Shown here in pieces: positions 1,301 through 6,703 of a stretch of DNA of 6,703 nt. How positions within the stretch are numbered: the first letter of the stretch is position 1; every line of letters begins with the position of its first letter. The notes beneath the pieces are model-generated. The model searched no databases and was not told where the DNA came from. It worked only from the letters and a program-made list of their open reading frames with translations. The stretch spans positions 1 to 6,703 of IMG/VR virus record IMGVR_UViG_3300014539_000071, one strand, 5' to 3'. The stretch comes from a virus (taxonomy: Duplodnaviria > Heunggongvirae > Uroviricota > Caudoviricetes). The position numbers were made by a program, and so were the translations under genes.

Positions 1301-2398
1301 ATGAAAAAATTAACAGTGGCAATTTCTGCTGTAGCTGCATCAGTACTGATGGCGATGTCTGCTCAGGCAGCTGAAATTTATAATAAAGACAGTAACAAGC
1401 TGGATCTGTACGGGAAAGTTAATGCTAAGCACTACTTCTCCTCTAATGATGCAGATGATGGTGATACTACTTATGCCCGTCTTGGCTTCAAAGGTGAAAC
1501 CCAAATCAACGATCAACTGACTGGTTTCGGTCAGTGGGAATATGAATTCAAAGGCAACCGCGCTGAATCTCAAGGTTCCTCCAAAGACAAAACCCGTCTT
1601 GCATTTGCAGGCCTGAAATTCGGTGACTACGGCTCAATCGATTACGGCCGTAACTACGGTGTAGCATACGACATCGGTGCGTGGACTGACGTTCTGCCAG
1701 AATTCGGTGGCGATACCTGGACCCAAACAGATGTGTTCATGACTGGTCGCACCACTGGTGTTGCAACCTATCGTAACAACGACTTCTTTGGTCTGGTTGA
1801 TGGTCTGAACTTTGCTGCTCAGTACCAAGGCAAAAACGATCGTAGCGATTTCGATAACTACACTGAAGGTAACGGTGATGGCTTCGGTTTCTCTGCTACC
1901 TATGAATACGAAGGATTCGGTATCGGTGCAACTTATGCGAAATCTGATCGTACCGACACTCAAGTTAATGCAGGGAAAGTTCTTCCTGAAGTATTTGCTT
2001 CCGGTAAAAATGCAGAAGTTTGGGCCGCAGGTCTGAAATATGACGCTAACAACATTTACCTGGCCACTACCTATTCTGAAACCCAGAATATGACTGTATT
2101 TGCTGATCACTTCGTTGCTAATAAAGCCCAAAACTTCGAAGCTGTTGCACAATATCAGTTCGATTTCGGTCTGCGTCCGTCCGTTGCTTACCTGCAATCT
2201 AAAGGTAAGGATCTTGGAGTATGGGGCGATCAGGACTTAGTCAAATATGTTGATGTAGGTGCAACCTATTACTTCAACAAAAATATGTCTACTTTCGTTG
2301 ATTACAAAATCAACCTGCTTGACAAAAATGACTTCACTAAAGCACTCGGTGTAAGCACTGATGACATCGTTGCTGTAGGTCTGGTTTACCAGTTCTAA
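1301..2398 (+). CDS. nmpC: Outer-membrane general porin of the OmpC/OmpF/PhoE family, NmpC / phage PA-2 Lc-like, apparently intact
   Basis: 365-aa ORF. N-terminal signal peptide [23 protein letters not shown] with AQA|AE cleavage site. Porin hallmarks: AEIYNKD...LDLYGK start of the mature protein and C-terminal ...VAVGLVYQF ending in Phe. Recognised from memory as NmpC/Lc. Opposite strand to the flanking phage genes (moron-like). Confidence 0.93.
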
Positions 2399-2587: not shown

Positions 2588-2971
2588 TTAATTAGAGTTA
2601 TTAACAACGATATCCATCTCTAACCGGATATCTAATGCCATTAACATCCCTTCAATTATGCCCTCAGCCTTCTGTAACCTTTTCCCGATATAACCATCAG
2701 AGCAGCAATGCTTACCTGCCAGTGACATGAATGTCATACCGACTACATAATAATCTACTAATAAATCGTGCAAATCGCTGTTGTTCTTTTTCAGACGGGC
2801 CATGCACCCGCAAATGATCATCGCGTCATCGTCACAACATTGCGGGCGAGATTTTACTTTTGAAGTAATTAATCCCTTAAAACCGGCGGCAATGGACGAC
2901 CAGGTCACATCTTCATGATTATTAGCCGCCCACGCTCCCCAACGCTCAAGAACCATCTGAATATCACGCAT
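2588..2971 (-). CDS. quuD: Late-gene antiterminator Q (phage 21/82-type, QuuD-like)
   Basis: Track ORF 2588..2986 (132 aa). I prefer the second in-frame ATG (2971..2969, [11 protein letters not shown]..., 127 aa) because it is preceded by GGAG with 7-nt spacing. Cys-rich motifs [16 protein letters not shown] and GKHCCSDG. Position immediately upstream of the lysis region and downstream of rusA-ylcG matches the DLP12 order. Recognised from memory as QuuD-like. Confidence 0.85.
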
Positions 2972-3056
2972 CAACTTACTCCACAAAAATCAGACCAAAA
3001 CGCCAATTACAAGCAAAAATCAACAAAACAGTATTAGTTGATTGTTATCTCTGACT

Positions 3057-3197
3057 TCATACTCCTGCTCCTGTCAGGGTTTTGGCGTAATTCTTCAGTA
3101 TTCGGTAATCGGTCAAAACAGAACCGGGGAAACGATATAAGCGCAGACGCCCCCAGCGGTGGCGAAGAAGTTCTGCCATATTAAACTCAAACATCAT
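3057..3197 (-). CDS. ylcG: Small conserved prophage ORF YlcG-like (46 aa)
   Basis: Not in the ORF track (too short). Manual translation of the minus strand gives [46 protein letters not shown], stop TGA 3059..3057. Start ATGATG overlaps the rusA stop codon (ATGA overlap at 3197..3194). Matches my memory of E. coli YlcG and its rusA-ylcG-Q position. Confidence 0.7.
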
Positions 3198-3556
3198 TCA
3201 TTCCCCATTTCGGTGATGGTCAGTTCCAGCCTCCCACCTTTGGTAACAGGCATCTTCACAACGCGGTAATCAACGACCTGAGCATCATCCAGCCAGAAAC
3301 CTGCTTTAGTGAGTGCGTCAAAAGCGGCTTTTTGCAGATTATCCAGGTCACGGCGACGGCGATCCGGCATGTGGCACTCAATGCGGATTTTCACAGGCAT
3401 AGCCAGGCCGATATCCAGCATTGCGTTTTTAATGATTCGGGCGACGTTATCGCGGTATGCCTGCCCCTCTGCGCTGATGTGCGTGCGCCCGCGATTATGG
3501 CGGTAATAGCGATTATTGCTCGGAGGCCAGGGTAATGTGATGCTGTAGGTATTCAC
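3194..3556 (-). CDS. rusA: Holliday-junction resolvase RusA (crossover junction endodeoxyribonuclease)
   Basis: 120-aa [21 protein letters not shown]..., recognised from memory as RusA. Start codon is GTG (3556..3554), preceded by a purine-rich SD AGAGGGGG. Acidic residues within RRRRDLDN are consistent with the RusA active site region. Confidence 0.9.
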
Positions 3557-3559
3557 GCC

Positions 3560-3673
3560 TTAATAACCCCCTCTTTCAGCCAGATAGACGGCCTGCTGTG
3601 AAACTTCGCAGGCAGCGCCTAGTTTCTTTTGTGAACCAACGATATTGATCGCTGTTTTGATGGCTGGGTTCAT
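3560..3673 (-). CDS. Short Cro-like HTH ORF (37 aa), possibly a truncated cro
   Basis: Manual translation: MNPAIKTAINIVGSQKKLGAACEVSQQAVYLAERGGY, stop TAA 3562..3560, 3 nt before the rusA GTG. Strong SD GGAGG (complement of 3679-3683) 5 nt upstream of ATG 3673..3671. GSQKKLGAACEVSQQAVY fits a Cro/CI-type helix-turn-helix, but the ORF ends right after the recognition helix, shorter than typical 60-70 aa Cro proteins. Confidence 0.45.
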   Translation of the reverse strand: MNPAIKTAINIVGSQKKLGAACEVSQQAVYLAERGGY

Positions 3674-3700
3674 AACAACCTCCGTGGTTAATTTGAATCA

Positions 3701-3729
3701 AGATTAAAACTATGGTTGTTTTTAGTCAA
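3701..3729 (-). promoter_or_regulatory. Candidate pR-like sigma-70 promoter driving the Cro-like ORF and rusA-ylcG-Q operon
   Basis: On the minus strand: -35 TTGACT (complement of 3729-3724), exact 17-nt spacer, -10 TAATCT (complement of 3706-3701), then about 25-nt leader to the SD GGAGG and ATG 3673. The -35 and spacer lie inside the palindromic operator at 3712-3736. Confidence 0.45.
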
Positions 3730-3736
3730 CAACCAT
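3712..3736. promoter_or_regulatory. Palindromic operator candidate ATGGTTGTT-N7-AACAACCAT
   Basis: Perfect 9-bp inverted repeat with 7-bp spacer (ATGGTTGTT tttagtc AACAACCAT) centred between the divergent Cro-like and repressor genes. The same half-site (ACAACCA / TGGTTGT) recurs at 3675-3681, 3760-3766 and in a second cluster at 6159-6204. Confidence 0.45.
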
Positions 3737-3742
3737 TTTCGT

Positions 3743-3771
3743 TTGATGAAATAAAACCTTGGTTGTACATT
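3743..3771 (+). promoter_or_regulatory. Candidate pRM-like promoter giving a leaderless repressor mRNA
   Basis: -35 TTGATG (3743-3748), 17-nt spacer, -10 TACATT (3766-3771), placing the transcription start about 7 nt downstream at or near the A of ATG 3778. No Shine-Dalgarno precedes either candidate start (3712 or 3778), as for leaderless lambda cI from pRM. Confidence 0.4.
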
Positions 3772-3777
3772 TGGACT

Positions 3778-4467
3778 ATGAAAACAACACTCTCAGAAAG
3801 ACTTAAAGAAGCCAGATTAGCGCGAGGCCTTACACAAAAGGCGCTTGGGGATTTGGTCGGGGTTAGCCAAGCAGCTATTCAGAAAATCGAAACAGGGAAA
3901 GCTAACCAAACAACTAAAATCGTGGAGATCGCGAACGCTTTGGGTGTGCGCGCAGAATGGTTATCTTCTGGCGTTGGAAATATGTCAGACAGTACAGTGC
4001 AACCAATACAAACAACTGTCAGCCATTCCAAATACTTTAAGATTGACGTTCTTGATATCGAAGTGAGTGCCGGGCCGGGAGTCATCAACCGTGAGTTTGT
4101 AGAAGTTCTACGTTCGGTTGAGTATTCGTTTGACGATGCTCGTCACATGTTCGATGGCAGGAAGGCGGAAAATATCCGTATCATTAACGTACGCGGTGAC
4201 AGCATGTCAGGAACGATCGAACCAGGTGATCTGCTGTTCGTTGATATCACTGTTAAATCTTTCGACGGTGATGGTATCTATGCGTTTCTGTACGACGACA
4301 CAGCCCATGTAAAGCGCCTGCAAATGATGAAGGATAAACTGCTGGTTATCTCTGATAACAAGAGCTACTCACCGTGGGACCCAATCGAGAAAGACGAGAT
4401 GAACCGGGTATTCATCTTCGGGAAAGTCATCGGGAGCATGCCGCAGACGTATAGGAAGCATGGATAA
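3778..4467 (+). CDS. CI/LexA-like repressor: N-terminal XRE-type HTH plus C-terminal S24 autopeptidase domain
   Basis: Track ORF is 3712..4467. I prefer start ATG 3778 (MKTTLSERLKEARLARGLTQKALGDLVGVSQAAIQKIETGK..., 229 aa) because 3712-3777 holds the operator palindrome and pR-like -35. HTH: LTQKALGDLVGVSQAAIQKIETGK. S24 motifs: Ala-Gly candidate cleavage site in VSAGPG (A98-G99 from the 3778 start), nucleophile Ser in RGDSMSG (S142), general-base Lys in HVKRL (K179), with LexA-like Ser-Lys spacing. Confidence 0.85.
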   Translation: MKTTLSERLKEARLARGLTQKALGDLVGVSQAAIQKIETGKANQTTKIVEIANALGVRAEWLSSGVGNMSDSTVQPIQTTVSHSKYFKIDVLDIEVSAGPGVINREFVEVLRSVEYSFDDARHMFDGRKAENIRIINVRGDSMSGTIEPGDLLFVDITVKSFDGDGIYAFLYDDTAHVKRLQMMKDKLLVISDNKSYSPWDPIEKDEMNRVFIFGKVIGSMPQTYRKHG

Positions 4468-4562
4468 TTCGACATAAATTCAACAAGTTAACTTTGGCTT
4501 CAAAAAAGCATCGATAACATTGCATTATATTTTTCCTTTTGTCTAACTTAAAAGGATGAACA

Positions 4563-5288
4563 ATGGAAGAACGTGGGAATTACCTAATAGACCCCCTAGA
4601 AGTAATTGGTTCTGGCGGTTTTGGCCTTGTAGAAAAAATAAGGTTATATAACTCACAAAGAAAAATTTGTGGTCTATATGCCAGAAAAATTTTACGACCT
4701 GATGCAACAGATCCTGAACTCTTTACCAGATTTGAACGAGAAGTAAGATATCAAACTGAATGCCTGCATACTAATATTGTCCAAATATTCATATGCCACT
4801 TACAGAATGCTCAGCCTTGGTTCGTAATGGAACTAGCAGAAACAAATCTTGAAGAAGAAATAAAAAGTGGAACTCTTACAAAGGCTGAAAAAATCTCTAT
4901 TGTAAAAATGGTACTAAATGCCGTCGGATGGATTCATAAGAAAGGATATCTTCATCGGGATATAAAACCACTAAATGTACTAAAATTTAAAGATGGAATT
5001 TATAAGTTATCTGACTTCGGCCTTGCAAAAAATGTGTCACCAGATGCCAATACACAGCTATTAACACAAATTGGCCAATACCCCGCTACTCCTAAATACT
5101 TTGATTACAACGTTTTCCTCAACGGATATTCAAAACAATCAGATATATATTCAATTGGTATTTTAATTGAAGAATTAAATATTGATGGTTTTGATGATAT
5201 AATAAACAAATGTACGCATAGACAACTTAACAAAAGATTCCTGACCGTAGAGCAGATCTTTGAGGAATTGGAGTTGAAACGCTTATGA
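4563..5288 (+). CDS. Compact Hanks-type (eukaryotic-like) Ser/Thr protein kinase, catalytic domain only
   Basis: 241-aa ORF with all core kinase motifs in order: glycine loop GSGGFG, beta3 Lys in YARK, alphaC Glu in FEREV, catalytic loop HRDIKPLN, DFG in SDFGLAK, subdomain IX SDIYSIG. SD AAGGA (4552-4556) 6 nt upstream of the ATG. No extra sensor domain. Low GC by eye relative to the rest of the window. Confidence 0.85.
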   Translation: MEERGNYLIDPLEVIGSGGFGLVEKIRLYNSQRKICGLYARKILRPDATDPELFTRFEREVRYQTECLHTNIVQIFICHLQNAQPWFVMELAETNLEEEIKSGTLTKAEKISIVKMVLNAVGWIHKKGYLHRDIKPLNVLKFKDGIYKLSDFGLAKNVSPDANTQLLTQIGQYPATPKYFDYNVFLNGYSKQSDIYSIGILIEELNIDGFDDIINKCTHRQLNKRFLTVEQIFEELELKRL

Positions 5289-6028
5289 TTAGCATACTCT
5301 CATCATCCATATTTTCTGTACCAAAACATAATGGCAGGGAAAATCAAGATAGCGTGCTTTATCCACTTCAAACACCAAATGGTTATCTTATGGCTATAGC
5401 TGATGGGGTTGGTGGTTATAAAGGAGGAAAAGAAGCATCTGCAGCAGTAATAAATCATTTGTATAGTATTAAAGACAGCTTCACTCATGAAGACAATGTC
5501 TTATCCTTACTTAAGACCCTACAAGAAAAGGTGGCATCTCTTTCGTCAGTTGATAAAGAATTAGCATCTGCTGCTACAACTTTAACAATGTGCCTACTTC
5601 ACAATCAAGGTCTAACAATTATACATGTAGGTGACTGTCGTGTTTATTTAAAAAATGGAAATAAGCTAATCCAATTAACAACAGATCATACTCAACATCA
5701 AATGTTGATAGATAGCGGTATTTATACAGCTCGACAGCTCAAAAATGCAAAAGGTAAAAATATTATTACAACTGCACTTGCTGCCAAGATCCCTCTTCAA
5801 CATCAAGTCATAAATATTGATAAAGATGAACTTCCTCTTGACGATGGTGTTCTATCTCTATTCATCATGTCTGATGGCGCGCATACCTTTTGGGAGCAAC
5901 GCCCACGATTTTCTTACCGTACATTGTCAACCGCATCAAGGTTTGCCTCCAGCCTAATGCGAAGAATAGAGACAAAAGGCCCGACTGACGATTATTCTCT
6001 TATAGCGGTAAATGTAAAGTATTTGTAA
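5285..6028 (+). CDS. PP2C-family (PPM) Ser/Thr protein phosphatase
   Basis: 247-aa ORF. PP2C metal-binding motifs: ENQDS near the N-terminus, DGxGG as ADGVGG, GDSR-like HVGDCRV, LTxDH as LTTDHT, SDG as MSDGAH, and C-terminal DDYSLIAVNV. Start ATG overlaps the kinase stop (ATGA at 5285-5288), implying translational coupling. Confidence 0.8.
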   Translation: MISILSSSIFSVPKHNGRENQDSVLYPLQTPNGYLMAIADGVGGYKGGKEASAAVINHLYSIKDSFTHEDNVLSLLKTLQEKVASLSSVDKELASAATTLTMCLLHNQGLTIIHVGDCRVYLKNGNKLIQLTTDHTQHQMLIDSGIYTARQLKNAKGKNIITTALAAKIPLQHQVINIDKDELPLDDGVLSLFIMSDGAHTFWEQRPRFSYRTLSTASRFASSLMRRIETKGPTDDYSLIAVNVKYL

Positions 6029-6032
6029 ACTT

Positions 6033-6059
6033 CCCGGCCACCGTGCCGGGTTTTCTTTT
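6033..6059 (+). terminator. Intrinsic terminator closing the repressor-kinase-phosphatase operon
   Basis: Stem CCCGGC (6033-6038) pairs with GCCGGG (6045-6050), loop caccgt, followed by TTTTCTTTT (6051-6059), beginning 5 nt after the phosphatase stop. No U-tract on the minus strand, so unidirectional. Confidence 0.7.
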
Positions 6060-6154
6060 ATCCCCTCCCCTCATCACGTATACCGTTCAAAAAACCACCA
6101 CAATCTCCCTTCAGTTATCGCTATGCGATGCAAGTCACAAAATAAATCCATCCT

Positions 6155-6236
6155 AAATACAACCAGTTACATCTAAAACAACCAATAAAACAACTTTTGT
6201 TGTTGACGATAAAACAACTATAGTTTTAAATAAATT
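6155..6236 (+). promoter_or_regulatory. Second operator-like cluster with a candidate pL-like promoter (OL-like region)
   Basis: Repeated half-sites resembling the 3712-3736 operator: ACAACCAG (6159-6166), ACAACCAA (6178-6185), AAAACAACT (6186-6194, 6211-6219). Inverted repeat AACAAC-TTTT-GTTGTT (6189-6204) overlaps a -35-like TTGACG (6203-6208); a weak -10-like TTAAAT follows at 6226-6231 after 17 nt. Promoter call is weak; the half-site clustering is the stronger signal. Confidence 0.3.
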
Positions 6237-6508
6237 CATCGCAACAACACAACGATACGGCAACCACCTGATTCACCGTTGCGATGACCGCTTAGATCCG
6301 CAGCTTGAATTTCAGCAGGCTTCGGGAAGTGCGAGGGGTGAAGCGGACGCGTGAACGTCGGTGTGACCAGCTGAAATCAACTCAACACTTCATACCTCAG
6401 TCGCTTCAACGAGGCGGCTTAGTTATGACAACCGGCGGCCATCCACCGCCTGAATACGCGCAGAAGTCTTTATATGTTCAGCAGCCCAGCTTACGGGCAG
6501 GAGTTTTT

Positions 6509-6703
6509 ATGGTTCATCAACATTACGGAACGCAGACCGTTAATCGCGGTGCGGTCATGCCAGGAATGCTGGTCAAACACAAAGATGGTACCTGGACTGC
6601 ATCAGCTAATTTATGCGGACGGCTATATCTGCATCGCGGCATCGAGCGCACTTATACCCGTGATTTGCTCGTGGAAGTTTTTCTCGACGGACGAGGCAAC
6701 GGC
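6509..6703 (+). CDS. 5' part of an ORF of unknown function running off the right edge of the window
   Basis: The frame is open from 6296 to the window end. ATG 6509 has a strong SD AGGAG (6499-6503) with 5-nt spacer and gives MVHQHYGTQTVNRGAVMPGMLVKHKDGTWTASANLCGRLYLHRGIERTYTRDLLVEVFLDGRGNG... An alternative in-frame ATG at 6425 has a weaker SD. Not in the ORF track, presumably because it has no stop inside the window. I do not recognise the product. Confidence 0.35.
   Translation, partial: MVHQHYGTQTVNRGAVMPGMLVKHKDGTWTASANLCGRLYLHRGIERTYTRDLLVEVFLDGRGNG

What the first reader, a model, noticed from the sequence alone, without database searches (positions are those of the whole stretch)
3675..3780. 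Compact immunity-type genetic switch: divergent promoters sharing a palindromic operator, with a leaderless repressor transcript
Seen directly: a perfect 9-bp inverted repeat ATGGTTGTT-N7-AACAACCAT (3712-3736) lies between divergent genes. On the minus strand a near-consensus promoter (TTGACT, 17 nt, TAATCT) overlaps the palindrome and points at the Cro-like ORF. On the plus strand TTGATG, 17 nt, TACATT ends about 7 nt before ATG 3778, with no SD, so the repressor mRNA would be leaderless, as lambda cI is from pRM. Extra copies of the half-site (3675-3681, 3760-3766) sit over the Cro-like RBS and the pRM-like -10. This indicates a functional bistable switch controlling the repressor-kinase-phosphatase operon against the rusA-Q late-activation operon. 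It also implies the ORF-track start at 3712 is probably wrong.
Basis: partly seen in the sequence, partly recalled or inferred. Interest (0 to 1): 0.6.

Follow-up and report, generated by a model that had tools for sequence, protein, structure and literature searches.

The report
434-type prophage immunity region, cro truncated
This is an ordinary lambda-family prophage control region: the "palindromic operator" is really the facing halves of two of three 14-bp repressor sites of the phage-434 type. The repressor mRNA probably has no leader, but the partner cro gene is cut short, so this copy cannot work as a two-state switch.

Summary
The perfect inverted repeat ATGGTTGTT-N7-AACAACCAT (3712-3736) is real and non-random for a 104-bp spacer. 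It is not one operator.

- **Repressor:** the repressor (3778-4467) has a DNA-binding domain whose best solved relative is phage 434 repressor.
- **Operators:** the region holds three 434-type 14-mers (ACAAC-N4-GTTGT): OR1 3706-3719, OR2 3729-3742 and OR3 3753-3766. The same motif recurs at OL (6190-6203, 6214-6227). The palindrome is OR1's right half plus OR2's left half.
- **Relatives:** five related phages keep the 14-mers at fixed distances from the repressor ATG (about -18.5, -42.5, -66). The palindrome is lost in one and re-spaced in another.
- **Supported by comparison:** Nothing is mapped experimentally.
- **Not supported:** a "functional bistable switch". cro keeps only 30 of 76 codons. 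A roughly 5-kb deletion fused it to DNA upstream of rusA, so the repressor now gates rusA-Q directly.

Verdict: a new member of a known kind, of low to moderate interest.

The parts
3712..3736 (.). It is composite: right half of OR1, the inter-operator spacer (which holds the pR -35), and left half of OR2.
   Evidence: Arms present in 80 of 82 homoimmune loci. Degraded to 6 of 9 arm positions in UPF_BP1 and re-spaced by +1 in phiEt88 and at the window's own OL.
3706..3719 (.). OR1, AAAACTATGGTTGT (ACAACCATAGTTTT on the pR strand). It lies in the pR spacer and touches the pR -10.
   Evidence: One mismatch to ACAAC-N4-GTTGT. Centre at -65.5 from the cI ATG, with an equivalent site at -65.5 to -67.5 in five relatives. 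It is 13 of 14 identical to OL1.
3729..3742 (.). OR2, ACAACCATTTTCGT. Its first base overlaps the pR -35 and its last base abuts the pRM -35.
   Evidence: 2 mismatches. Centre at -42.5 in 5 of 6 phages and -43.5 in the sixth. Same placement as the annotated OR2 of phage 434.
3753..3766 (.). OR3, AAAACCTTGGTTGT. It lies in the pRM spacer and its last base is the first base of the pRM -10.
   Evidence: 1 mismatch. Centre at -18.5, conserved in relatives. Exact in 82 of 82 homoimmune loci.
3675..3688 (.). Possible fourth operator, ACAACCTCCGTGGT, over the cro Shine-Dalgarno and downstream of the predicted pR start.
   Evidence: 1 mismatch. One-mismatch sites sit at the same position (-96.5) in PSTCR7lys and UPF_BP1 but not in phiEt88. 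Function is inferred only.
3701..3729 (-). pR-like promoter: -35 TTGACT (3729-3724), 17-nt spacer, -10 TAATCT (3706-3701). Predicted start near 3694.
   Evidence: Sequence. A -35-like hexamer and a TAnnnT -10 lie at the same place relative to OR2 and OR1 in five relatives. Not flagged by the consensus scan. No start-site data.
3743..3778 (+). pRM-like promoter: -35 TTGATG (3743-3748), 17-nt spacer, -10 TACATT (3766-3771), then 6 nt, then the A of ATG 3778 as the predicted start. The cI mRNA would be leaderless.
   Evidence: Geometry is identical in 6 of 6 related immunity regions. Common SNPs at 3774 and 3775 change the only GGA between the -10 and the ATG. Four more distant repressor relatives also have a -10-like element 6-9 nt before the ATG.
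3778..4467 (+). cI-type repressor, 229 aa: 434-like HTH domain plus S24 autoprotease domain (Ala98-Gly99, Ser142, Lys179).
   Evidence: Pfam HTH_3 and Peptidase_S24. Best PDB match is 434 repressor, E 4.5e-9, ungapped. Annotated as 229 aa in PhiR47_2 and E. coli T2. Residues.
3560..3673 (-). Truncated cro (YdaS family): 30 cro codons, then 7 foreign codons and a stop. The deletion joint is at 3584-3586, with ATA microhomology.
   Evidence: Homology to intact phages stops at 3584, and DLP12-type homology ends at 3586/3587. Intact cro is 76 codons. Pfam YdaS_toxin covers residues 5-30 only.
4563..6028 (+). Ser/Thr kinase (4563-5288) and PP2C phosphatase (5285-6028), in the position of lambda rexAB downstream of cI.
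   Evidence: Pfam. The kinase hits the PD-T4-6, mad6 and Stk2 defence models. No terminator-like site was found between cI and the kinase. Other phages carry different cargo at this position.
6033..6060 (+). Intrinsic-terminator-like hairpin plus T-run that ends the cI-kinase-phosphatase unit before OL.
6190..6203 (.). OL2, ACAACTTTTGTTGT, a perfect ACAA-N6-TTGT. Its last base starts the pL -35 TTGACG (6203-6208).
   Evidence: 0 mismatches. Exact in 76 of 82 loci. The OL block travels with this immunity type in 79 of 82 loci.
6214..6227 (.). OL1, ACAACTATAGTTTT, 24 bp from OL2, in the pL spacer.
   Evidence: 1 mismatch. OL pairs 24-25 bp apart lie downstream of cI in four of the five relatives; none was found in the HK639 stretch held. 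Homology with heteroimmune phages starts only at about 6238.
2588..3556 (-). rusA (3194-3556), a ylcG-like ORF (3057-3197) and antiterminator Q/quuD (2588-2986). The deletion has placed them directly downstream of pR-cro'.
   Evidence: ORFs. Annotation of homologous DLP12-type DNA.

Best explanation
**What it is.** The region 3674-3777 is the right operator/promoter region (OR) of a defective lambdoid prophage of E. coli. An SOS-cleavable cI-type repressor with a phage-434-like helix-turn-helix domain binds as dimers to three 14-bp operators of the form ACAAC-N4-GTTGT: OR1 3706-3719, OR2 3729-3742 and OR3 3753-3766, spaced 23 and 24 bp apart. It binds two more at OL (6190-6203 and 6214-6227).

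**How it works (inferred from geometry).**
- OR1 and OR2 cover the spacer and -35 of the leftward promoter pR (TTGACT-17-TAATCT), so a bound repressor would shut pR.
- OR2, centred 42.5 bp before the repressor ATG and abutting the -35 of the rightward promoter pRM (TTGATG-17-TACATT), is placed to activate pRM.
- OR3, inside the pRM spacer, would give negative autoregulation at high repressor levels.
- pRM should start transcription at or next to the A of ATG 3778, giving a leaderless cI mRNA as in lambda.

**The palindrome.** The 9-bp perfect inverted repeat arises because the well-conserved halves of OR1 and OR2 face each other across the pR -35.

**Why it is not a switch here.** A roughly 5-kb deletion removed cro from codon 31 onwards, along with cII/ydaT, O, P, ren, ybcN, ninE and most of ybcO. 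There is no Cro and no bistability. The repressor maintains itself, probably co-expresses the kinase-phosphatase pair, and directly holds down rusA-Q, and through Q the lysis genes.

**Shown versus inferred.** Shown here: the sequence features, homologies, conserved positions and the truncation. Inferred: binding, activation, the transcription start sites and the consequences of derepression.
For: - **DNA-binding domain.** Its best solved relative is 434 repressor (E 4.5e-9, residues 5-68 against 2-65, no gaps). The annotated 434 operators are ACAA-N6-TTGT 14-mers.
- **Motif enrichment.** ACAAC-N4-GTTGT with at most 1 mismatch occurs 5 times in the window, all in OR or OL. The expectation is 0.28, and 0 of 200 shuffles reach 5.
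- **Conserved positions.** In six related immunity regions the three 14-mers are centred at -18.5/-19.5, -42.5/-43.5 and -65.5 to -67.5 from the cI ATG. OL pairs 24-25 bp apart lie downstream of cI in five of them.
- **Unit of conservation.** In UPF_BP1 the strong half of OR2 has swapped sides while the 14-mer stays at -42.5, and the palindrome falls to 6 of 9 positions. In phiEt88, and at the window's own OL, the GTTGT-to-ACAAC spacing is 10 rather than 9.
- **Residue-base covariation.** Relatives with recognition helix QPAIQK have near-perfect ATAAC-N4-GTTAT 14-mers at the same positions, whereas the helix QAAIQK goes with ACAAC.
- **Promoters.** -35/17 nt/-10 arrangements for both promoters are conserved in position in 6 of 6 regions, with 6-7 nt between the pRM -10 and the ATG.
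- **Polymorphism.** Non-singleton SNPs among 82 homoimmune loci fall at 3692-3694, 3699, 3711 (centre of OR1), 3725 (pR -35, in the OR1-OR2 spacer), 3749-3750 and 3774-3775. None falls in the 30 outer operator positions.
- **Start codon.** PGAP and phage authors call the 229-aa start. Stop codons close the upstream frame in 4 of 5 relatives.
- **cro truncation and deletion joint.**
- **Precedent.** In the CP-933P prophage, paaR2 is leaderless by 5' RACE, and a ydaS mutation abolishes one of the two expression states (PMC8630535).
Against: - There is no binding, footprint or transcription-start data for this immunity type.
- Both promoters match only 8 of 12 consensus positions and were missed by the consensus scan.
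- OR2 has 2 mismatches, and the second halves of OR1, OR3 and OL1 are degenerate (AAAAC/GTTTT).
- Phage 434 itself has an 18-nt leader with a ribosome-binding site on its pRM transcript. A 434-like operator layout therefore does not by itself imply a leaderless mRNA.
- The homoimmune loci are about 97-100% identical, so their SNP pattern discriminates weakly: the chance of no hit in the operator halves is about 0.03, and in the palindrome arms about 0.15.
- The palindrome is kept in PSTCR7lys (8-bp arms), so some role for OR1-OR2 mirror symmetry cannot be excluded.
Confidence: 0.8

Rival explanations
1. One reading: the 25-bp palindrome ATGGTTGTT-N7-AACAACCAT is a single operator. One repressor dimer binds it, both divergent promoters share it, and isolated extra half-sites assist.
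For: - The repeat is perfect, improbable by chance in a 104-bp spacer (0.003) and present in 80 of 82 homoimmune loci.
- It overlaps the pR -35.
- PSTCR7lys keeps an 8-bp version with the same 7-nt spacing.
Against: - The half-sites point tail-to-tail (GTTGT...ACAAC) with centres 15 bp apart, which puts them on opposite faces of the helix. The homologous 434 domain binds ACAA...TTGT with centres 10 bp apart.
- The spacing is not kept at the window's own OL or in phiEt88 (10 rather than 9 nt between GTTGT and ACAAC). The repeat decays to 6 of 9 positions in UPF_BP1, while the 14-mers stay in register.
- QPAIQK relatives have unambiguous, near-perfect 14-bp palindromes at the OR1-3 positions and no 25-bp palindrome.
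- The model leaves 3753-3766 and the OL sites unexplained.
Confidence: 0.07
2. The inverted repeat acts as an RNA hairpin or intrinsic terminator. The scan flags it as terminator-like on both strands.
For: The terminator scan lists it on both strands. The RNA hairpin folds at -9 to -10.8 kcal/mol, with z-scores of -2.4 and -3.3.
Against: - It lies upstream of both predicted transcription starts (about 3694 leftward, about 3778 rightward). Neither pR nor pRM would transcribe it.
- Only 3 of its 9 pairs are G-C.
- It is absent from UPF_BP1.
- A terminator here would block pRE-type establishment transcripts from reaching cI.
Confidence: 0.02
3. The repressor is translated from ATG 3712 (251 aa) on a leadered mRNA. 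The 3743-3771 hexamers would then not be its promoter.
For: The frame is open from 3712 to 3778 in the window and in UPF_BP1, whose record annotates the long form.
Against: - The extension would be encoded by operator and promoter DNA.
- There is no Shine-Dalgarno before 3712.
- Stop codons close the frame in PSTCR7lys, phiEt88, PA28 and HK639.
- The 434 homology starts at residue 5 of the short form.
- Relatives are annotated as 229 aa.
Confidence: 0.03

Closest known systems
Phage 434 immunity region (cI, OR1-3, OL1-3)
   Same: - The DNA-binding domain is homologous.
- The operators are 14 bp with outer ACAA...TTGT, and the window's OL2 is a perfect ACAA-N6-TTGT.
- OR2 ends where the pRM -35 begins, and OR3 ends at the pRM -10 with a 17-nt spacer.
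- The repressor is an S24 autoprotease.
   Different: - The recognition helix is QAAIQK rather than QQSIEQ. Position 5 of the half-site is a conserved C, and position 2 tolerates A.
- The 434 pRM transcript has an 18-nt leader with a ribosome-binding site, whereas here the -10 sits 6 nt from the ATG.
- In the annotated 434 record, pR is shifted so that OR2 lies in its spacer. Here pR has the lambda layout.
- Cro here belongs to the YdaS family, not the 434 Cro fold family.
Phage lambda OR / pRM (leaderless cI mRNA)
   Same: - Three operators about 23-24 bp apart lie between divergent pR and pRM.
- OR2 is centred about 42 bp before the pRM start, and OR1 lies in the pR spacer and -10 (lambda positions are from my own knowledge of the textbook system).
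- The cI mRNA starts at the AUG (PMC10491246).
- A cI-cargo-terminator-OL/pL order, like cI-rexAB.
   Different: - Operators are 14 bp rather than 17 bp, and the DNA-binding domains are of different subfamilies.
- The cargo is a kinase plus a PP2C phosphatase rather than rexAB.
- No N gene lies between pL and kil in this family.
- cro is truncated in this copy.
CP-933P cryptic prophage switch (PaaR2 / YdaS / YdaT), PMC8630535
   Same: - A short (97 bp against 104 bp) divergent region lies between a repressor and a YdaS-family Cro analogue, followed by a YdaT-type cII analogue in intact relatives.
- The repressor mRNA is leaderless, shown there by 5' RACE.
- The repressor operon carries cargo.
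   Different: - PaaR2 is unrelated in sequence to this S24 repressor.
- Its repeats are 18-bp (GTTTAGTAA-type) and there are four of them.
- CP-933P keeps ydaS and is bistable, whereas this window has lost two-thirds of cro.
DLP12-type defective prophage of E. coli K-12
   Same: The left part of the window (rusA, ylcG, quuD, porin, essD, lysozyme) is DLP12-type DNA, 93-99% identical to many E. coli genomes.
   Different: Here an immunity region (cI, OR, OL) is retained and joined directly to rusA. That joint was not found in 5,426 complete E. coli genomes, the GTDB species representatives or the JGI metagenome contigs.

Membership tests
LexA/cI-type (S24) phage repressor | N-terminal HTH domain plus C-terminal Peptidase_S24 domain | tested here: met
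   Pfam HTH_3 (E 5.5e-13) and Peptidase_S24 (E 1.2e-18), both above the curated cut-offs.
LexA/cI-type (S24) phage repressor | Ala-Gly cleavage site and Ser/Lys catalytic dyad | tested here: met
   Ala98-Gly99, Ser142 in GDSM and Lys179 in VKR, with a 37-residue Ser-Lys spacing. The residues were assigned from motifs, not from a structural alignment.
LexA/cI-type (S24) phage repressor | RecA-stimulated self-cleavage | not testable with these tools
   Needs biochemistry or an induction experiment.
434-class operator system | DNA-binding domain homologous to 434 repressor | tested here: met
   434 repressor is the best natural PDB match (the 434-derived design dh434, 1sq8, scores slightly better), E 4.5e-9, ungapped over 64 residues. 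Gln31 aligns with 434 Gln28.
434-class operator system | 14-bp operators with outer ACAA...TTGT, repeated at OR and OL | tested here: met
   Five sites with at most 1 mismatch to ACAAC-N4-GTTGT, all in OR or OL, against 0.28 expected. 434 sites confirmed as ACAA-N6-TTGT from the annotated record.
434-class operator system | Three OR sites about two helical turns apart, overlapping pR and pRM | tested here: met
   Spacing of 23 and 24 bp, with positions conserved in six immunity regions.
434-class operator system | Repressor and Cro actually bind these sites | not testable with these tools
   Needs EMSA or footprinting.
Leaderless pRM-type repressor mRNA (lambda cI type) | -10 hexamer placed so that transcription starts at the A of the start codon, with no Shine-Dalgarno | tested here: met
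   TACATT ends 6 nt before the ATG. The equivalent TAnnTT hexamers in five relatives end 6-7 nt before it. SNPs at 3774 and 3775 change the only GGA.
Leaderless pRM-type repressor mRNA (lambda cI type) | Mapped 5' end at the AUG | not testable with these tools
   Needs 5' RACE or dRNA-seq.
Bistable cI/Cro genetic switch | Intact Cro-type second repressor transcribed from pR | tested here: not met
   Only 30 of 76 cro codons remain, ending inside the HTH region. Pfam YdaS_toxin covers residues 5-30 at 23.1 bits, below the cut-off of 30.
Bistable cI/Cro genetic switch | Intact repressor with its operators and promoters | tested here: met
   The spacing is +1 at OL and in phiEt88, and the arms fall to 6 of 9 positions in UPF_BP1.

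The most novel reading that the evidence does not exclude
The cro-less remnant may be a domesticated module rather than debris. An SOS-cleavable 434-class repressor is kept because it directly holds down Q and the lysis genes, so losing it would be lethal. It thereby stably expresses a kinase/PP2C anti-phage pair from pRM. cro is cut at the very same nucleotide in a second, differently joined set of E. coli genomes (E3 type, fused to ylcG). That hints at a recurrent or targeted 'switch-locking' deletion. A fourth operator over the cro ribosome-binding site, conserved at -96.5 in three phages, may be part of the same control.
Probability: 0.15. Interest if true: 0.45.

Novelty: new member of a known kind. 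Interest (0 to 1): 0.25.

Why it matters
- **Annotation of a common element.** This immunity type occurs in about 1,500 of 5,426 complete E. coli genomes. The analysis gives it a concrete, testable operator and promoter map.
- **Repressor start.** It settles the start codon at 3778. At least one public record of a relative (UPF_BP1) annotates a long form that overlaps cro.
- **A caution for sequence reading.** A striking perfect palindrome can be a by-product of neighbouring operators rather than the binding unit.
- **Protein-DNA recognition.** The residue-base covariation is a small natural data set for 434-class recognition: Ala at the position of 434 Gln29 goes with C/A at operator position 2, and Pro goes with T.
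- **Biology of this copy.** It is a repressor-only remnant, so it tells us about prophage decay and domestication, not about a new kind of switch.

Tried and rejected
- **Consensus promoter scan.** Neither proposed promoter reached the tool's threshold. The promoters rest on positional conservation instead.
- **The palindrome as a single operator.** TGGTTGT-N9-ACAACCA with up to 3 mismatches recurs nowhere meaningful in the window.
- **17-bp lambda-style operators** (AAAAC-N7-GTTTT). They fit OR1 and OL1 but not the other sites, so I dropped them in favour of the 14-mers.
- **A third OL operator.** The candidates at 6159-6172 and 6178-6191 have poor second halves, and 6178-6191 is the most polymorphic stretch of OL. 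I did not call one.
- **Literature search by operator sequence.** It returned only unrelated primers. A search by phage names found no description of this immunity region.
- **933W as the model.** Its operators are 15 bp and of a different sequence, so it is not the right comparison.
- **Rfam at E<=1.** No RNA family matched anywhere in the window.
- **Deletion joint.** It was searched in complete E. coli genomes, GTDB representatives and JGI metagenomes and never found. The source of the window remains unknown.
- **Hairpin or terminator reading.** Rejected on position and weak stem.
Full report
**Observation.** The window reads ATGGTTGTT (3712-3720), 7 nt, AACAACCAT (3728-3736). This is a perfect 9-bp inverted repeat.
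- It lies in the 104-bp spacer between a leftward ATG at 3673 and a rightward ATG at 3778.
- First-order Markov simulations give about 0.3 such repeats per 6.7-kb window but only 0.003 per 104-bp segment.
Each promoter matches only 8 of 12 consensus positions, and the consensus scan flagged neither.
The second is at 3760-3766 as stated.

**Context.** The window is a defective lambdoid prophage of E. coli.
- Positions 3584-4466 are 96-100% identical to the cro-cI region of temperate phages such as PhiR47_2 and IdasGreatGrand. About 1,500 of 5,426 complete E. coli genomes hold at least 80% of the 3500-4500 query.
- In those relatives cro is 76 codons. It is followed by a YdaT-type cII analogue, then O, P, ren, ybcN, ninE, ybcO and rusA.
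- In the window, homology to cro stops at 3584 and DLP12-type homology (the 3' end of ybcO plus rusA) ends at 3586/3587. The two are joined at a 3-nt ATA microhomology.
- cro therefore keeps 30 of 76 codons, then runs through 7 foreign codons to a stop.
- The joint was not found in complete E. coli genomes, GTDB species representatives or JGI metagenome contigs.

**The repressor.**
- The 229-aa protein from 3778 has HTH_3 and Peptidase_S24 domains, with Ala98-Gly99, Ser142 and Lys179.
- Its N-terminal domain aligns without gaps to phage 434 repressor, its best natural match in the PDB (E 4.5e-9).
- Gln31 corresponds to 434 Gln28. The rest of the recognition helix differs: QAAIQK against QQSIEQ.

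**Operators: the re-parse.** The annotated 434 genome lists 14-bp operators of the form ACAA-N6-TTGT.
- The window contains the same kind of site. ACAAC-N4-GTTGT with at most 1 mismatch occurs five times, at 3675, 3706, 3753, 6190 (perfect) and 6214. The expectation is 0.28, and no shuffle in 200 reaches five.
- With 2 mismatches allowed, 3729-3742 joins them.
- OR thus holds OR1 3706-3719, OR2 3729-3742 and OR3 3753-3766, spaced 23 and 24 bp apart. OL holds OL2 6190-6203 and OL1 6214-6227, 24 bp apart.
- OL lies after a terminator-like hairpin at 6033-6050.
- The OL block accompanies this immunity type in 79 of 82 loci, although the cargo between cI and OL varies. Homology with heteroimmune phages begins only at about 6238.

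**Test against relatives.** I took the cro-cI spacers of five phages whose repressor N-terminal domains are 56-65% identical to this one.
- PSTCR7lys and UPF_BP1 share the helix QAAIQK, and phiEt88 has QANIQK. All three have ACAAC-type 14-mers. PA28 and HK639 have QPAIQK and near-perfect ATAAC-N4-GTTAT 14-mers.
- In all six regions the 14-mers are centred at -18.5 (-19.5), -42.5 (-43.5) and -65.5 to -67.5 from the A of the cI ATG. OL pairs 24-25 bp apart follow cI in five of them; none was found in the HK639 stretch held.
- The palindrome behaves differently. PSTCR7lys keeps it with 8-bp arms. phiEt88 and the window's own OL have one extra base between GTTGT and ACAAC. In UPF_BP1 the strong half of OR2 has moved to the other side of the 14-mer, so the arms match at only 6 of 9 positions while the 14-mer stays at -42.5.
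- The conserved unit is therefore the 14-mer.
- Geometry points the same way. The palindrome's half-sites are tail-to-tail with centres 15 bp apart, on opposite faces of the helix. A 434-type dimer reads ACAA...TTGT with centres 10 bp apart.
- Among 82 homoimmune loci, non-singleton SNPs in OR fall at 3692-3694, 3699, 3711 (the centre of OR1), 3725 (the pR -35), 3749-3750 and 3774-3775. None falls in the outer five positions of any operator half. This test is weak, because the loci are so similar.

**Promoters and the leaderless mRNA.**
- Relative to the operators, both promoters sit at the same place in all six regions.
- For pRM, the -35 begins right after OR2: TTGATG, TTGAAT, TTGACC, TTGTAT, TTTACT, TTTACT. 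A 17-nt spacer follows. The -10 begins at the last base of OR3: TACATT, TATCTT, TATTTT, TAACTT, TAGATT, TATATT. Then 6 nt (7 in one phage) precede the ATG.
- That leaves no room for a Shine-Dalgarno and puts the expected start at the A of ATG 3778, as for lambda cI (PMC10491246).
- The common SNPs at 3774 and 3775 alter the only GGA in those 6 nt.
- Four more distant relatives also carry a -10-like element 6-9 nt before the ATG.
- Phage 434 itself is annotated with an 18-nt leader and a ribosome-binding site. This region is therefore 434-like in its operators and lambda-like in its leaderless cI.
- For pR, TTGACT overlaps the first base of OR2, and TAATCT begins at the first base of OR1. Relatives have TATTAT, TATATT or TATAAT at that spot.
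- With a start at 3778, OR2 is centred at -42.5. From my own knowledge of the lambda system, that is the position from which lambda cI activates pRM.
- None of this has been mapped experimentally.

**Start codon.**
- The ORF from 3712 would be encoded by operator and promoter DNA, and it has no Shine-Dalgarno.
- Stop codons close the frame in four of five relatives.
- PGAP and the phage authors call the 229-aa form.

**What the circuit does in this copy.**
- Without Cro there is no second stable state. In the experimentally studied CP-933P switch, which also uses a YdaS-family Cro analogue and a leaderless repressor, stop codons in ydaS abolish one of the two populations (PMC8630535).
- Here the repressor presumably maintains its own synthesis and that of the downstream kinase and PP2C phosphatase. 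No terminator-like site was found between cI and the kinase.
- The kinase matches the anti-phage kinase models PD-T4-6, mad6 and Stk2.
- Because the deletion removed everything between cro codon 30 and rusA, pR now reads straight into rusA, ylcG and Q. The repressor would therefore directly gate Q-dependent expression of the lysis genes. This last step is inference.

**Comparison and novelty.**
- The region is a member of the lambdoid cI/OR/OL family, with a 434-class DNA-binding domain and operators, a lambda-type leaderless pRM and a YdaS-type Cro.
- I found no paper that describes the operators of this immunity type. The architecture is canonical, however.
- It is a new member of a known kind. 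As a bistable cI/Cro switch it fails a defining test, because cro is not intact.

**Rivals.**
- A single 25-bp operator is contradicted by the OL spacing and by the relatives.
- An RNA hairpin or terminator is unlikely. The repeat lies upstream of both predicted starts, and the stem is weak.
- Translation from 3712 is contradicted by the stop codons in relatives.

Noticed in passing
window 3560-3673 (joint at 3584-3586): cro is truncated after codon 30 of 76 and fused to the 3' end of ybcO upstream of rusA through an ATA microhomology. This exact joint is absent from 5,426 complete E. coli genomes, the GTDB species representatives and the JGI metagenome contigs.
   Followed up: yes
L088 4560-4600 (E. 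coli strain E3), compared with window 3100-3108 and 3584-3590: Seven complete E. coli genomes carry the same immunity region with cro cut at the same nucleotide (...TA|GACGGCC). There it is fused to ylcG, so rusA is also missing. I could not decide between two independent events at one hotspot and two successive deletions.
   Followed up: partly
window 3675-3688: A fourth 434-type 14-mer (ACAACCTCCGTGGT) covers the cro Shine-Dalgarno, 31 bp from OR1. One-mismatch sites sit at the identical position (-96.5 from the cI ATG) in Providencia phage PSTCR7lys and Salmonella phage UPF_BP1, but not in phiEt88. It may be an extra operator downstream of the pR start.
   Followed up: partly
window 4563-6028: A Ser/Thr kinase and a PP2C phosphatase occupy the rexAB-like slot after cI. 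The kinase matches the anti-phage models PD-T4-6, mad6 and Stk2. The same slot holds GevT/GevA in PhiR47_2 and a DUF7946 protein in strain E3, so it is a variable cargo site.
   Followed up: partly
window 6236-6509: About 270 nt lie between the predicted pL start and kil (ATG 6510), with no N-like gene. The stretch begins with a perfect 10-bp stem (6236-6245 / 6278-6287). It is shared with heteroimmune phages from about 6238, and it has no Rfam match. It could be an RNA-based (put-like) antitermination element, but I did not test this.
   Followed up: no
L083 (Providencia), L084 (Salmonella), L085 (Erwinia) against the window: Phages of four genera share the recognition helix QA(A/N)IQK and the same ACAAC-type operators at OR and OL, although their N-terminal domains are only 58-65% identical. 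They may be cross-immune. Relatives with QPAIQK use ATAAC instead, a residue-to-base covariation at operator position 2.
   Followed up: partly
L084 1093-1923 (Salmonella phage UPF_BP1): The public record annotates the repressor from an upstream start that overlaps cro. By comparison with the other five regions, the true start is probably locus position 1201, which is preceded by the conserved -10.
   Followed up: partly
window 1301-2398: An OmpC/NmpC-like porin gene lies between Q and the holin-lysozyme genes on the opposite strand, as in DLP12. It would be antisense to any Q-dependent late transcript.
   Followed up: no
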